IMG/VR virus record: IMGVR_UViG_3300025113_000003
Span: 28,869 to 92,868 of that record
Source of the DNA: a virus
Direction: 5' to 3' (one strand)
DNA: 64,000 nucleotides
The notes below the pieces were generated by a model. That model was given only the letters and a program-made list of their open reading frames with translations, ran no database searches and was not told the origin of the DNA. This document shows positions 56,475 through 60,298 of this stretch, in pieces (position 1 is the first letter of the stretch; each line of letters opens with the position of its first letter). Position numbers and translations under genes: made by a program.

Positions 56475-58085
56475 TCACAGGTTGGCGATGATCTGCGGCG
56501 CTGCGCTGTCGAAGCCAGCGATGTCAAGCATGCCGCCGTCCTTCGGGTCAGCGATCGTGAACTCCGACGTCGAGGTGCCGATCACGATGCACTTCGCACC
56601 ACCGTTGAACTGTGCGCGGTAGTCCCGCAGCGCCTGCACCGGCTGGATGCGGCCAGCCCACGTCTCGTTGTCCGTGATGGTCACGAACTTGTCGACGTTC
56701 ATCTTGTGCTGCTTCGCGTGCACCATCGGCAGGGCGCAGTCGGTGCCGCCCCAGCTGAAGCGCTGAATCACCGCCAGGACCTTGTCGAGGCGCATGTTCG
56801 GGCTGATCTTCAGCTCGCCCATGGTCGTGTTGAAGCCGCCGATCCAGTAGTTCGGCTGGTTCTTCACGACCGCCAGCGCCATGACGCCCGCGACCTCAGC
56901 TGCGGTCAGGTTCGGCGAGCCGTTGACCCGCGCGCTGAACATCGAGCCCGAGCAGTCGACGCCCATCAGGTACGAGTCCTGCGTCTTCTCAGCCGTCTCG
57001 AACGCCGCGTAGAACGCGTCGTCCAGTACGTCCACGACGCGCTGCTCCGGCTTCCAGGTCGCCGAGCCCTTCTCGCCGTGGCCGACCGAGTACTGCTTCA
57101 TCGCCTGCAGGATCGTGATCGGGTGAACGCGCTGCTTGCGCAGCGCCTCGCCGTCGCTGATCTTCGCGACCACCAGCTTCGTGCCCTCAGAGAGAGGCGC
57201 GATGATGCCGTGCTGCGTCAGGACGCCCAGCTTGCGGATGACCGCAGTCAGGCCCATGTGCTGCAGGAGGGCCATCATGATGTCCTTGTCCTTCAGCCAC
57301 TGGGTCGGCACCATTTCCCACGTCAGCGCCGCGTTGCCCTCGATGAGGTGCAGCACAGTCAGCTTGTTGTCAGTCCTCTTCAGGTGCTCGAAGTCGACGA
57401 GCAGCTGCGGCACGGCCGCACCGAGCGTCAGCTCCTTGCCCACCGCGTAGCGGAACATGTTCGACTGCACGTCGCTCGACGGCTTCACGTGAGCCAGCCG
57501 CAGCACGTCACGGTGCGCCCAGCCGTTGCGCGACTGGTACTTCAGGAGCTGGAAGGCCAGCTTGTCCATGTCCTTCGACGTGTACCACTTGGCCACACCG
57601 CGCTTCGCCGCCGCGTTCCACTTGCCGAGCGAGTCGAGGATGGAAACGAACAGGAAGAGCCACGTGCCGGTACGGGCGATGCGCGGCAGGGCCTCGAAGG
57701 CGGCGACCTTAGTCGCCTCGTCGCCAAACACCGCCGCGAGGGCGATGGTCACGACCGCCGGGTCGTTCTTCGGCGCGCGGCCGGCCAGCGAGTACTCGAG
57801 AGCCCGAGCCACGACGCGGGCGCCGTCTGCCTTCAGGCAGGACTTGACGGTGTCGAAGGACTGCTTGGTGATGTCGCGCTCACCGACGTAGTAGTTGCCC
57901 CCTTCGGAGCCGATCATCAGGAAGCGGTCGAGCACGCCCCACTGGTCGAGCGTGAAGGTCACGCCGCCGGCGTTGTTGCGCTTCATGTCAGCCTCACGGC
58001 CCGGGATTGCCTGGGACTGCGGGGTCACAGCCTTGGACGGCTTGGCGGTGGTTGCACCGGCGAAATCAGCGTATACGTTCGACAT
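56475..58085 (-). CDS. rsr: Ro60/TROVE-domain RNA-binding protein (Rsr-like)
   Basis: NNAGG, LDRFLMIGSEGG.YY, KYQSRNGWAHRDVLRLAH, HPITIL; vWA DCSGSM, GGTDCALPM, TDNETW and GFDS. Confidence 0.95.
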   Translation of the reverse strand: MSNVYADFAGATTAKPSKAVTPQSQAIPGREADMKRNNAGGVTFTLDQWGVLDRFLMIGSEGGNYYVGERDITKQSFDTVKSCLKADGARVVARALEYSLAGRAPKNDPAVVTIALAAVFGDEATKVAAFEALPRIARTGTWLFLFVSILDSLGKWNAAAKRGVAKWYTSKDMDKLAFQLLKYQSRNGWAHRDVLRLAHVKPSSDVQSNMFRYAVGKELTLGAAVPQLLVDFEHLKRTDNKLTVLHLIEGNAALTWEMVPTQWLKDKDIMMALLQHMGLTAVIRKLGVLTQHGIIAPLSEGTKLVVAKISDGEALRKQRVHPITILQAMKQYSVGHGEKGSATWKPEQRVVDVLDDAFYAAFETAEKTQDSYLMGVDCSGSMFSARVNGSPNLTAAEVAGVMALAVVKNQPNYWIGGFNTTMGELKISPNMRLDKVLAVIQRFSWGGTDCALPMVHAKQHKMNVDKFVTITDNETWAGRIQPVQALRDYRAQFNGGAKCIVIGTSTSEFTIADPKDGGMLDIAGFDSAAPQIIANL

Positions 58086-58135
58086 GTCTGGTTCTCCTTA
58101 TGAGCGGCTGTCATTGACAGCAAGTTGTCCGTCGG

Positions 58136-58434
58136 CCTCAACGAGCGGCCAAAAAGGCGGGGTCGGGAATTTTCAGCACTACCCGATGGACGTGTTTCCA
58201 CGCTTGACCCACAAGACAGCACCTACACCAGTTGATTCAGCCATACTGGTACCCTATGAGCTATTCGACGCTCCAACGTCCATCATTTTCGGCGATGACG
58301 AGCTTATCCAGATCTTGAGGTTATCTGGCACCCTCCTAACTGGCCCGGCTTGTCTTTCAACTTGCGTAGGTAGTCAGGGTCCTTACGGTCACTTTGAAGT
58401 AGATAACCAACTCCAAGCGGGCCGTTCGTTGAGG
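58136..58434 (-). ncRNA. Large (~300 nt) Y-RNA-like ncRNA
   Basis: Ends pair (CCUCAACGA-A-CGGCC / GGCCG-C-UCGUUGAGG); UGGUUAUC motif; multiple internal hairpins; lies directly upstream of Ro60. Confidence 0.65.
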
Positions 58435-58446
58435 TTACGGAATTTT

Positions 58447-58574
58447 GACTGGGTTGAGAGGGGGAACAAAGAGTGCCACGGAAATGGAAGGCATCGCGAG
58501 ACCTTGCCAGCTGGTTACACCCACGAGGGGTGGCAGTGCTTAGGATAACCATGAGCGATCGGTTCCAACCAATC
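58447..58574 (-). ncRNA. Y RNA (Ro60-binding), ~128 nt
   Basis: GGAAC-C(bulge)-GA pairs with UUGUUCC, the Y-RNA bulged-C helix; UGGUUAUC; outer GAUUGGUUG/CAACCCAGUC. Confidence 0.75.
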
Positions 58575-58602
58575 GTTGCATCGATTACTCGATGCATGTG
58601 CT

Positions 58603-58632
58603 ATTTTATAGCAGGGGGCGAAAACTGTACAA
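58603..58632 (-). promoter_or_regulatory. Sigma70-like promoter for the Y RNA-Ro60 operon
   Basis: Minus strand TTGTAC...TATAAAAT followed by a leader hairpin TGCATCGA-N4-TCGATGCA. Confidence 0.6.
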
Positions 58633-58639
58633 CAAATTA

Positions 58640-59197
58640 TCAGGTTGAAGCTCGGCTGTAGATCGCCCCGCTGAGAAGCGCGCAGATCTTTCCTTCGTTG
58701 CTCGGCATCTCCCAGTCGCCGTCGGCGTCCTTGGTAGCGATTGATTCAAAGACGAAGCGCTCCACCTTCTTGGAGTGGGGGTCCCACATCTCAATCCATT
58801 CGTGCAGGTCAGTTCCATCGTAGGTGCCAACCTTCTCCTCTGAGACGCGTCGAACCACAGAGACCCCAAGTCCTGAGTTGGTGATCAGGTGATCCAGCTC
58901 CTCGTCGCTGGGCATCAGCCCCTCTTCTTCGATGTTACGCTGCAGCTTCGAGAGAGCGTCGACCTTCATCAGCGTCTCAAGCACGCCGGTAGAGAGAACG
59001 TCGGTTAGGTGGCTAGCGACCATGATAAGCGCCGCCTGGTAGCTGAGCACGCAGTAGACAGGAATAAGCAGCAGCCACCAACCTGTCAGTACCACCCAAA
59101 GCGGCAGTGACACAAGAACGGCTTGAACTGCCCAGGCAGCTCGCGCCAAAGAAACAGCTCTGTCAATCCTTTGGCTGAGATCAACAGAGATCTTCAC
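58640..59197 (-). CDS. Membrane-anchored hypothetical protein
   Basis: N-terminal TM segments; coupled ORF. Confidence 0.55.
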   Translation of the reverse strand: MKISVDLSQRIDRAVSLARAAWAVQAVLVSLPLWVVLTGWWLLLIPVYCVLSYQAALIMVASHLTDVLSTGVLETLMKVDALSKLQRNIEEEGLMPSDEELDHLITNSGLGVSVVRRVSEEKVGTYDGTDLHEWIEMWDPHSKKVERFVFESIATKDADGDWEMPSNEGKICALLSGAIYSRAST

Positions 59198-59213: not shown

Positions 59214-59801
59214 TCACTGCGCCGTCTGAAGGTGCTTCCAGACCCGGCTGTGCTCTGGGATGAACGACTTGAGGTAGTCCATCTGGCAGCCGAGGATCAC
59301 GCGGTTCTCCAGGACCAGCGCCTCCGCCCGGTTGGGGGCGTACGGCACGTACAGGAGCTGCATGCCCACCTCGTCGAGCATGTGGTCGTCTTTCTTGTGG
59401 TTGCACCGCTCGCATGCCGTGACGCAGTTCGCCCACTTGTCGATGCCACCCTTCGACCGAGGGGTGACGTGGTCGCGCGTGAGGTGCAGCTCCTTGAAGA
59501 TGCCACCGCAGTACGCGCACATGTAGTGGTCACGCCGGAACAGCTCACGGTTGGTCAGGGCCGGCGGCTTGTGCATCCGCTTGGCCGCCGCCGATTCGCC
59601 CTTGACAGCGATGATCGGAGCCGTGATGATGCGCGACTGGGTACCCGTGATGCGGTTCTCACCGCCGCGGAACAGCACGTCACCATCGCCTTCACCCAGC
59701 TGCCAGGCGACGAGGCCCTTGGCGTGGTAGACGATTGCGGTCTCGTGCGACACCCACCGGTGGGGCGTGCCGCCGGCGTCAAGTGTGAGAATTCTGCTCA
59801 T
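59214..59801 (-). CDS. HNH endonuclease (McrA-like)
   Basis: LFRRDHYMCAYCG, TRDHVTPRSKGG and NCVTACERCNHKK motifs. Confidence 0.9.
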   Translation of the reverse strand: MSRILTLDAGGTPHRWVSHETAIVYHAKGLVAWQLGEGDGDVLFRGGENRITGTQSRIITAPIIAVKGESAAAKRMHKPPALTNRELFRRDHYMCAYCGGIFKELHLTRDHVTPRSKGGIDKWANCVTACERCNHKKDDHMLDEVGMQLLYVPYAPNRAEALVLENRVILGCQMDYLKSFIPEHSRVWKHLQTAQ

Positions 59802-60244
59802 GATACCTTCCTTTCTAGTTCTTCTACGAACCGAACGTGGTCCTTTCTACCCTTTGTTCTGAAGCTTTCCAGCGTCATCCAGGTGGTGAACTCAGTTTCG
59901 TCACACCACTTGTCAAAGTCATATCGATCTTGGATCTCTACCCCGAAGACGTACAGCACGTACGCACAGGAGTAGAGCTCGATTCTACCGTCAAACACCT
60001 CTAGGATGTTCCCTCGCAGGTTGCGCTGCTTGAGCCCGAGTTCCTCCTCGGCTTCACGCAGGGCACAGCTCAGCGGGGTCTCACCTTCTTCAATCTTTCC
60101 CTTCGAAATCATCGGACGCGGGCCGCCAAACTTCGGGTCGGACGCCACCATCATCAGGTAGCGCAGCTGCCCATCCTCCCCACGGAGGAAGGGGATCAAC
60201 CCGGCGCGCGGGTCCTTCTCGTAGTTGTCTTCTTCGCGTTGCAT
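59798..60244 (-). CDS. Nudix hydrolase
   Basis: KGKIEEGETPLSCALREAEEELG Nudix box; likely start MQREED. Confidence 0.9.
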   Translation of the reverse strand: MQREEDNYEKDPRAGLIPFLRGEDGQLRYLMMVASDPKFGGPRPMISKGKIEEGETPLSCALREAEEELGLKQRNLRGNILEVFDGRIELYSCAYVLYVFGVEIQDRYDFDKWCDETEFTTWMTLESFRTKGRKDHVRFVEELERKVS

Positions 60245-60298
60245 GGTGTATTGTATCACAGTCCTTAGGTTGAATACACTGCCAACCTGTAACAGCAA

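What the first reader, a model, noticed from the sequence alone, without database searches (positions are those of the whole stretch)
58136..58434. ~300 nt Y RNA with a large, pseudoknotted effector domain
Seen on the minus strand: inside the 14-bp terminal stem is a ~230 nt highly structured insert. Hairpins include CCAGAU/AUCUGG, GACG/CGUC, ACCAGU/ACUGGU, CGUG-GAAA-CACG (GNRA) and UCGGG/CCCGA. Long-range GACCC/GGGUC encloses two crossing helices, ACCUAC/GUAGGU and AAGACA/UGUCUU, which is a pseudoknot topology. This is over twice the usual Y RNA length. Inference: a Y-RNA handle fused to a novel RNA domain, such as a ribozyme-like fold, a protein scaffold or a mimic of a host RNA.
Basis: partly seen in the sequence, partly recalled or inferred. 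Interest (0 to 1): 0.82.

Follow-up and report, generated by a model that had tools for sequence, protein, structure and literature searches.

The report
Giant Y RNA beside phage Ro60
A 300-base structured RNA just upstream of an uncultured jumbo phage's Ro60 gene has the docking stem of a Y RNA (Ro60's partner RNA) but a conserved multi-hairpin body two to three times larger than any described Y RNA, so it probably gives the phage's Ro60 particle an extra, still unknown, function.

Summary
The feature is real. 58136-58434(-) lies in a 555-nt gap directly upstream of a full-length Ro60 gene on an IMG/VR phage contig. Thirteen distinct related contigs carry the same RNA. A comparative structure of 66 pairs is 82% paired (34-43% in slid controls), and 46 pairs show compensatory changes.

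The closing stem has animal-type Y RNA hallmarks: a lower stem, a bulged C opposite a U-rich bulge, an upper stem, and an invariant UUAUC. A second, ~105-nt Y-like module lies just 5' of it, so this is the larger of two tandem Y RNAs behind one promoter.

The inner ~215 nt is a conserved set of arms (P3/P4 rod with a GNRA tip, H1-H4, invariant UGUAG, variable 3' arm). It matches no Rfam family.

The terminal stem and two hairpins are confirmed by covariation; the GNRA hairpin forms but lies in a window-specific insert. GACG/CGUC, UCGGG/CCCGA, GACCC/GGGUC and AAGACA/UGUCUU are at chance level. The proposed pseudoknot is therefore not supported as drawn.

Best reading: a Ro60-docking RNA with an enlarged effector scaffold, a new variant of a known kind. 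Ro60 binding, processing and the partner are untested. The scan noted this family earlier on another genome (e1-5322737).

The parts
58603..58632 (-). Sigma-70-like promoter (-35 TTGTAC, 17-nt spacer, -10 TATAAAAT) for the whole unit
   Evidence: Consensus scan. The -10 block TATAAAATAGC is conserved in relatives. Function not shown.
58577..58596 (-). 5' hairpin just after the presumed transcription start
   Evidence: The stem covaries (4 pairs, RNAalifold on A4).
58463..58566 (-). Small Y-like module A: lower stem GGAAC/GUUCC, bulged C at 58561, GGUUAUC at 58544-58550, variable loop hairpins
   Evidence: RNAalifold on 13 loci. The lower stem covaries (GC, CG, UA, AU types). The GA/UC, GG/CC and NNN/NNN steps are kept.
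58420..58434 (-). B, P1 5' strand (CCUCAACGA.CGGCC)
   Evidence: Pairs with 58136-58150. 12 of 14 pairs have changes on both sides. Also covaries across the wider clade.
58402..58419 (-). B, Y core 5' side: bulged C plus GCU junction, P2 5' strand UGG.GUUGG, invariant UUAUC
   Evidence: P2 is 95.2% paired; one pair is seen as GC 7, AU 5, CG 1. ACCG and GGUUAYC are nearly invariant.
58335..58378 (-). B, P3/P4 rod: P3 CCUGACU/AGUUAGG, 6x6 internal loop, P4 GC-AA-GUU[GAAA]GAC-AA-GC
   Evidence: P3 sits in the same place with different sequences in 10 loci. P4 is 89% paired and its sequence is conserved.
58308..58328 (-). B, hairpin H1 (CCAGAU/AUCUGG)
   Evidence: 5 of 6 pairs have changes on both sides.
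58277..58300 (-). B, hairpin H2 (CGUCAUC/GAUGG.CG, loop GCCGAAAAU, bulged A)
   Evidence: 6 of 7 pairs have changes on both sides; 84% paired.
58258..58273 (-). B, hairpin H3 (GAGC/GCUC, loop GUCGAAUA)
   Evidence: 90% paired. In 23 model-aligned sequences all 4 pairs covary.
58223..58251 (-). B, 7-bp hairpin H4 followed by the invariant UGUAG
   Evidence: H4 is 96.7-97.7% paired with 4-5 covarying pairs. UGUAG is invariant in 13 of 13 sequences.
58175..58222 (-). B, variable 3' arm, including the window-specific insert with CGUG-GAAA-CACG
   Evidence: Length and sequence vary between loci. Closing helix weak: 53% paired on this alignment.
58136..58176 (-). B, Y core 3' side: CUGAAAAUU linker, P2 3' strand CCGAC.CCG, U-rich bulge CCUUUUU, P1 3' strand
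   Evidence: The motif YGAARUYUCCGAY...UUUG is conserved in more than 20 loci. Pairing shown.
58107..58121 (-). Leader hairpin (GCUGUC AAU GACAGC) about 8 nt upstream of the Ro60 ribosome-binding site AAGGAG
   Evidence: UUGCUG...CAGCCG is conserved with covarying interior. It stays next to Ro60 when another gene is inserted after B.
56475..58085 (-). Ro60 gene (TROVE + vWA domains, 536 aa)
   Evidence: Pfam PF05731 and PF25045. Full-length match to D. radiodurans Rsr 2NVO (E 1.7e-104) and to animal Ro60 1YVP/9NEN.

Best explanation
58136-58434(-) encodes the larger of two tandem Y-class RNAs. They are co-transcribed with a phage Ro60 gene from one promoter and are presumably cut out of that precursor. 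The closed end of the RNA is the Ro60 docking handle: P1, a bulged C opposite a U-rich bulge, P2, and UUAUC facing AUYUCC. By analogy with solved Ro60-Y RNA complexes, this handle would sit on the outer face of the Ro60 ring. The ~215-nt interior is a conserved multi-arm effector module: the P3/P4 rod capped by a GNRA loop, hairpins H1-H4 with YGAA-type loops, RUAGG linkers and a variable 3' arm. It would tether or gate Ro60 towards a partner, most simply a host 3'-5' exoribonuclease such as PNPase, as in the bacterial RYPER particle and in Thermus phage phiLo.

Shown: location, conservation, secondary structure and the Y-type handle.
Inferred: Ro60 binding, processing into a discrete RNA, and the identity of any partner.
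For: - Context. The RNA is directly upstream of, and on the same strand as, a full-length Ro60 gene. A promoter-like site lies 5' of both RNA modules, and no terminator-like site on the RNA's own strand lies between them and Ro60.
- Homologues. Found in 13 distinct viral or metagenome loci whose Ro60 is 66-84% identical.
- Structure. 66 pairs, 82.2% of cells paired versus 34-43% when partners are slid; 46 pairs have changes on both sides; 0 of 500 shuffles reach this.
- Handle. P1 covaries; ACCG and GGUUAYC are nearly invariant; P2 covaries; a U-rich 3' bulge is present. These match the published animal Y RNA description (bulged C, opposite bulge, UUAUC; PMC4726728).
- Sibling module A has the same handle. 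Its counterpart in relative L040 scores 37 bits on the nematode stem-bulge (Y homologue) family RF01656, whose gathering score is 38. A phage RNA in L086 scores 40.2. Two RNAs upstream of Ro60 in Gordonia phage BearBQ score 28-29.
- The H3-H4-UGUAG core is found by covariance model in 8 further loci (E from 3.5e-6 to 0.07); 92.7% paired over 23 sequences.
- About 10 more distant loci (Ro60 56-71% identical) keep the same handle, with 211-297 nt between its two sides.
- In L003 a 247-aa ORF is inserted between this RNA and Ro60, while the small leader hairpin stays with the Ro60 start. The RNA is therefore a separable unit.
- Precedent: bacterial and phage Y RNAs are encoded beside Ro60, and in M. 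smegmatis are processed from one precursor (PMC4201824). Phage phiLo Ro60 binds two upstream Y-like RNAs and host PNPase (PMC12135203).
Against: - No expression, end-mapping or binding data.
- No Rfam Y-type family matches this RNA even at E <= 10.
- At 299 nt it lies outside the 80-130 nt range of all characterised Y RNAs.
- The bacterial motif GNCGAA is not near the 5' end as it is in YrlA.
- The window's own minimum-energy fold (-111.8 kcal/mol) differs from the comparative fold (-95.4 kcal/mol).
- No RNA-processing partner gene is adjacent.
- The PNPase partner rests purely on analogy.
Confidence: 0.72

Rival explanations
1. The 3' half of the RNA is a diverged, expanded version of the tRNA-like module of bacterial YrlA, so the RNA acts as a tRNA mimic. 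The matching elements would be GUUG, hairpin H3 as the T arm, 7-bp H4 as the acceptor-like stem, UAG, and the 3' arm as the D arm. This refines the best explanation rather than excluding it.
For: - The elements come in the same order as the YrlA consensus shown: GUuG, T hairpin, acceptor-like hairpin, UAG, D hairpin, then back to the stem.
- H4 has 7 pairs and is followed directly by the invariant UAG.
- The H3 loop carries UCGAA.
- Several members have GG(U)A just before the 3' strand of the last arm, and L012 has CUCAGUUGGUUA there.
Against: - The YrlA model finds nothing at E <= 10 in the window, in the whole contig or in L012. It does find YrlA-like RNAs beside more distant phage Ro60 genes.
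- ARAGORN finds nothing.
- The H3 loop is 8 nt rather than 7.
- A 6-nt linker separates H3 from H4.
- The D-like helix is weak (53% paired) and is absent in L003 and L009.
Confidence: 0.25
2. The element is not a stable trans-acting RNA. It is a cis-acting structured leader that controls Ro60 translation or mRNA stability, for example by feedback binding of Ro60.
For: - It lies in the 5' untranslated region of Ro60, with no terminator-like site on its own strand before the gene.
- A conserved hairpin sits next to the ribosome-binding site.
Against: - In L003, and apparently in L030 and L032, another ORF separates the RNA from Ro60, while the small hairpin stays with the Ro60 start.
- The RNA is closed on itself by a 14-bp stem.
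- The Ro60 ribosome-binding site is not part of any conserved pairing with it.
Confidence: 0.12
3. It is a precursor that is cut into several small hairpin RNAs, or an array of binding sites for another RNA-binding protein, rather than one folded domain.
For: - More distant members consist of runs of hairpins separated by AUAG or AUAUUUG linkers.
- UAGG is enriched in the inner domains: 46 observed versus 18.4 +/- 4.2 expected.
- L003 and L009 carry an extra hairpin-GUAGGU unit.
Against: - P1 and P2 close the whole array and covary across the family, which would be pointless if the pieces act alone.
- The sequences are related, so the enrichment partly reflects shared ancestry.
- GGA, the CsrA-type motif, is not enriched.
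Confidence: 0.08
4. It is a self-cleaving or otherwise catalytic RNA embedded in a Y handle.
For: Only its size and structural complexity.
Against: No match to any ribozyme family in Rfam. No conserved pseudoknotted core could be established.
Confidence: 0.03

Closest known systems
Animal Y RNAs and nematode stem-bulge RNAs (Rfam RF00019, RF01656; Kowalski & Krude 2015, PMC4726728)
   Same: The 5' and 3' ends pair. The lower stem has a bulged C on the 5' strand and a bulge on the 3' strand. An upper stem follows, with UUAUC directly after it and a pyrimidine-rich 3' side. The RNA is encoded with, and presumably bound by, Ro60.
   Different: The loop domain is about 215 nt of conserved, covarying helices instead of a few tens of weakly structured nucleotides. 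Total length is 299 nt against about 70-130 nt. It is of phage origin. No covariance-model hit for this RNA.
Bacterial and mycobacteriophage YrlA/YrlB with Rsr (Rfam RF02553; Chen et al. 2014, PMC4201824)
   Same: Encoded upstream of Ro60 on the same strand, two RNAs in tandem, probably from one precursor. Modular design of handle plus effector domain. The 3' half may share the order of elements of the tRNA-like module.
   Different: No YrlA model hit. No canonical T or D arm. GNCGAA is not at the 5' end. About 2.5 times longer. An extra P3/P4-H1-H2 region has no counterpart in YrlA.
Yrl1/Yrl2 of Thermus phage phiLo with phage Ro60 and host PNPase (PMC12135203)
   Same: A phage Ro60 with two upstream Y-like RNAs. 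This is the precedent for a phage Ro60 particle that recruits a host exonuclease.
   Different: The phiLo RNAs were described as canonical stem-bulge-stem Y-like RNAs. The phiLo Ro60 is only distantly related to this one (E 5.9e-5).

Membership tests
Y RNA, animal/sbRNA type | 5' and 3' ends pair into a long closing stem | tested here: met
   P1 has 14 bp; 12 pairs have changes on both sides. It covaries across more than 20 loci.
Y RNA, animal/sbRNA type | Lower stem with a single bulged C on the 5' strand and a bulge on the opposite strand | tested here: met
   The pattern [stem]-C-CG ... UUU(U)-[stem] is present in all aligned members. It is seen even more clearly in sibling module A. The published definition is in PMC4726728.
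Y RNA, animal/sbRNA type | UUAUC motif at the top of the upper stem | tested here: met
   GGUUAYC is invariant or nearly so in 13 of 13 sequences, and is kept in most of the wider clade.
Y RNA, animal/sbRNA type | Bound by Ro60 | not testable with these tools
   Only genomic linkage to a full-length Ro60 gene is available.
Y RNA, animal/sbRNA type | Length about 80-130 nt with a largely unstructured loop domain | tested here: not met
   The RNA is 299 nt. Its loop domain is about 215 nt and holds at least seven conserved helices.
Y RNA, animal/sbRNA type | Scores on the Rfam covariance models | tested here: not met
   No hit at E <= 10. Only small sibling-type RNAs in relatives score: 37 and 40.2 bits on RF01656.
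YrlA (RF02553) | GNCGAAN0-1G motif near the 5' end | tested here: not met
   GUCGAA occurs in the H3 loop, in the middle of the RNA. The 5' strand instead carries ACCGCUUGG.
YrlA (RF02553) | tRNA-like T arm (7-nt loop) and D arm; match to the model | tested here: not met
   No model hit at E <= 10. The H3 loop is 8 nt. ARAGORN finds nothing. The order of elements is similar, which is a lead only.
Large phage-associated structured RNAs (GOLLD, ROOL and others in Rfam) | Match to the family model | tested here: not met
   No Rfam family matches at gathering score or at E <= 10.
CsrB/RsmZ-type protein sponge | Enrichment of GGA / ANGGA motifs | tested here: not met
   GGA: 76 observed versus 100.8 +/- 8.8 expected.

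The most novel reading that the evidence does not exclude
The ~215-nt interior is an autonomous RNA fold of a new kind that has been grafted onto a Y handle in a clade of uncultured jumbo phages. It would let phage Ro60 engage a partner or substrate that no known Y RNA addresses, for example a host RNA-processing or defence component, or by mimicry of a host RNA. 'Giant Y RNAs' would then be a distinct functional class rather than merely long Y RNAs.
Probability: 0.3. Interest if true: 0.8.

Novelty: new variant of a known kind. Interest (0 to 1): 0.62.

Why it matters
Y RNAs are thought of as small adaptors whose short loop decides what Ro60 does. Here the loop has grown into a conserved, multi-arm structured domain of about 215 nt, kept across a clade of very large uncultured phages alongside an ordinary-sized sibling with the same handle. 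That gives a natural pair, same handle with a small or a large body, for asking how the Y RNA body programmes Ro60.

It also adds to the evidence that animal-type Y hallmarks (bulged C, UUAUC) exist in phages. And it points to an unknown activity that jumbo phages bring into the cell's RNA quality-control or decay machinery.

Tried and rejected
- Rfam, whole window at gathering score and the locus at E <= 10: nothing but a chance snoRNA hit on the other strand. The YrlA model in the whole contig and in L012: nothing.
- blastn of the intergenic region against 50,697 phage records: no match.
- Cultured relatives: Ralstonia phage RsoM2USA has the neighbouring HNH-like gene but no Ro60 locus there. 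Sinorhizobium phage Phosso has Ro60 with only a 143-nt upstream gap. No cultured phage carrying this RNA was found.
A 60-position core model was used instead.
- Coding: the 97-aa ORF at 58304-58597(-) is not kept in relatives, where the same frame runs only 2-81 aa.
- CsrA-type sponge: GGA is not enriched.
- ACCUAC/GUAGGU pseudoknot with P3: 75.6% paired, but it breaks in six sequences. The CC of ACCUAC can instead pair locally with GG of CGGGCC. GUAGGU occurs three times in L003. Judged possible but unlikely, about 25%.
- A 3-bp pairing between the H1 loop and the GG after P3 (77.8% paired) is too short, and overlaps P3 too much, to call.
- Neighbouring genes: HNH/endonuclease VII-like, Nudix, tail-fibre-like and unknowns. 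None is an obvious RNA partner.

Full report
**Context.** The window is part of a 92.9-kb IMG/VR virus record that CheckV rates 26% complete. Related contigs reach 340-460 kb. The nearest cultured match of a neighbouring gene is the 344-kb Ralstonia phage RsoM2USA. So this is a fragment of an uncultured jumbo phage.

The finding lies on the minus strand inside a 555-nt gap (58086-58640). The gap ends at the start codon of a 536-aa ORF with TROVE and Ro60-vWA domains. That protein matches D. radiodurans Rsr (2NVO, E 1.7e-104) and animal Ro60 (1YVP, 9NEN) over its full length.

Searching viral and metagenome contigs with the Ro60 protein gave 13 distinct loci, with Ro60 66-84% identical. Their upstream regions align from a conserved TATAAAAT box down to the Ro60 start.

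46 pairs change on both sides, and no shuffle out of 500 reaches this.
- Confirmed: the 14-bp terminal stem, CCAGAU/AUCUGG (H1) and ACCAGU/ACUGGU (H4).
- At chance level: GACG/CGUC, UCGGG/CCCGA, GACCC/GGGUC, AAGACA/UGUCUU and the CGUG/CACG hairpin, counted together, are 51.7% paired against 49.8% in shuffles.
  - The first two clash with covarying helices.
  - The others use an insertion found only in this window.

The window's own minimum-energy fold (-111.8 kcal/mol) contains those private helices. The comparative fold costs -95.4 kcal/mol.

**The handle.** The closed end reads:
- 5' side: P1 (CCUCAACGA.CGGCC), then C, GCU, P2 (UGG.GUUGG), then UUAUC.
- 3' side: CUGAAAAUU, then CCGAC.CCG, CCUUUUU, and P1 (GGCCG.UCGUUGAGG).

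P1 and P2 covary. ACCG and GGUUAYC are almost invariant. This matches the published description of the animal Y RNA stem: a bulged C, a bulge on the other strand, and UUAUC after the upper stem (PMC4726728).

The 170 nt 5' of it hold a second module of about 105 nt with the same design. It has a lower stem GGAAC/GUUCC that covaries, a bulged C, GA/UC, GG/CC and GGUUAUC.

Independent support that such phage RNAs are Y-like comes from Rfam family RF01656, the nematode stem-bulge (Y homologue) RNAs, whose gathering score is 38 bits:
- The small module of relative L040 scores 37 bits.
- A phage RNA in L086 scores 40.2 bits.
- Two RNAs upstream of Ro60 in Gordonia phage BearBQ score 28-29 bits.

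The large RNA itself matches no Rfam family at E <= 10, nor the YrlA model.

**The body.** Between UUAUC and the 3' side of P2 lie, in order:
- a weakly conserved segment;
- an irregular rod: P3 CCUGACU/AGUUAGG, a 6x6 internal loop, and P4 with two A.A mismatches and a GAAA loop;
- hairpins H1, H2 (loop GCCGAAAAU), H3 (loop GUCGAAUA) and H4 (7 bp);
- the invariant UGUAG;
- a variable 3' arm.

P3 recurs at the same place with different sequences in ten loci. H2, H3 and H4 are 84-97% paired, and most of their pairs covary.

A 60-position covariance model of GUUG-H3-H4-GUAGG finds eight further loci (E from 3.5e-6 to 0.07). It finds none among Ro60 loci that are 50% identical or less. Over 23 sequences the two hairpins are 92.7% paired.

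About ten more distant loci (Ro60 56-71% identical) keep the handle, with 211-297 nt between its two sides. They fill the interior with runs of hairpins separated by AUAG, UAGG or AUAUUUG linkers. Across 22 inner domains, UAGG and YGAAW are enriched over dinucleotide shuffles (46 versus 18.4, and 57 versus 31.2). The sequences are related, so this is descriptive only. L003 and L009 carry an extra hairpin-GUAGGU unit, which suggests that the body grew by adding such units.

**Pseudoknot.** With P3 established, ACCUAC/GUAGGU would cross it. That pairing is 75.6% kept and one outer pair covaries, but several points argue against it:
- Its 3' strand is the invariant UGUAG, and six members break it.
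- In L024 and L025 the candidate 5' strand is used in a 10-bp P3 instead.
- The CC of ACCUAC can pair locally with GG of CGGGCC, with one covarying position.
- GUAGGU occurs three times in L003.

I put a real pseudoknot here at about 25%.

**What it most likely does.** Shown: a conserved, self-closed, Y-handled RNA in one unit with Ro60 and a small sibling. Inferred:
- It is processed from the precursor. In M. smegmatis, two Y RNAs upstream of rsr come from one precursor (PMC4201824).
- It docks on Ro60 through the handle.
- Its body tethers or gates Ro60 towards a partner, as in the bacterial Ro60-Y RNA-PNPase particle and in phage phiLo, whose Ro60 binds two upstream Y-like RNAs and host PNPase (PMC12135203).

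The RNA is a separable unit. In L003 a 247-aa ORF that looks like a GIY-YIG homing endonuclease sits between it and Ro60, while the small leader hairpin stays with the Ro60 start. That argues against a purely cis-acting leader.

A refinement worth testing is that GUUG-H3-H4-UAG-3' arm is an expanded YrlA-type tRNA-like module. The order of elements is the same. H4 has seven pairs followed by UAG, and several members have GG(U)A before the last strand. But the models do not see it, and the loop sizes differ.

**Novelty.** Characterised Y RNAs are 80-130 nt. I found no paper describing a ~300-nt Y RNA or this family. Earlier notes of this scan describe the same locus as an operon (e1-5994651). 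They also describe, on another genome, two tandem Y-like stems with the second unusually large (e1-5322737), so the family has been seen by the scan before.

I class it as a new variant of a known kind. What is missing is any evidence of expression, Ro60 binding or a partner.

Noticed in passing
window 58107-58121 (-), and the same position in all related loci: A small hairpin with conserved flanks (UUGCUG...CAGCCG) and a covarying interior always lies a few bases upstream of the Ro60 ribosome-binding site. This holds even when another gene is inserted after the large RNA. It could be a processing site, an mRNA-stabilising 5' end or a Ro60 operator.
   Followed up: partly
L003:2301-3044 (+): A 247-aa ORF, whose N-terminus looks like a GIY-YIG homing endonuclease, is inserted between the large Y-like RNA and Ro60. 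L030 and L032 also have an ORF in that position.
   Followed up: partly
window 59214-59801 (-) and 59798-60298 (-): An HNH/endonuclease VII-like gene is kept upstream of the Ro60/Y RNA unit across the clade (51-88% identity). A Nudix hydrolase gene accompanies it in the seven closer loci where the held sequence reaches that far. A Nudix enzyme next to an RNA-surveillance unit might act on RNA 5' ends.
   Followed up: no
L019:1215-1349 and 1365-1435 (Gordonia phage BearBQ, OR253908.1): Two unannotated tandem RNAs upstream of the Ro-like gene of a cultured actinophage match the nematode stem-bulge RNA family at 28-29 bits and carry GGUUAUC. This is a tractable system for phage Y RNAs of the animal-like type.
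   Followed up: no
L003:2051-2106 and the equivalent in L009: An extra hairpin followed by GUAGGU duplicates the H4-UGUAGG unit, so the large domain seems to grow by adding hairpin-RUAGG units.
   Followed up: partly
L054, L066, L086, L090 (viral contigs with Ro60 about 41-46% identical): More distant phage Ro60 genes are flanked by YrlA-like RNAs (29-47 bits) and, in three of the four (L066, L086, L090), tRNA genes. In L066, L086 and L090 the YrlA-like RNAs lie downstream of Ro60. Different Ro60 clades thus carry different Y RNA types.
   Followed up: no
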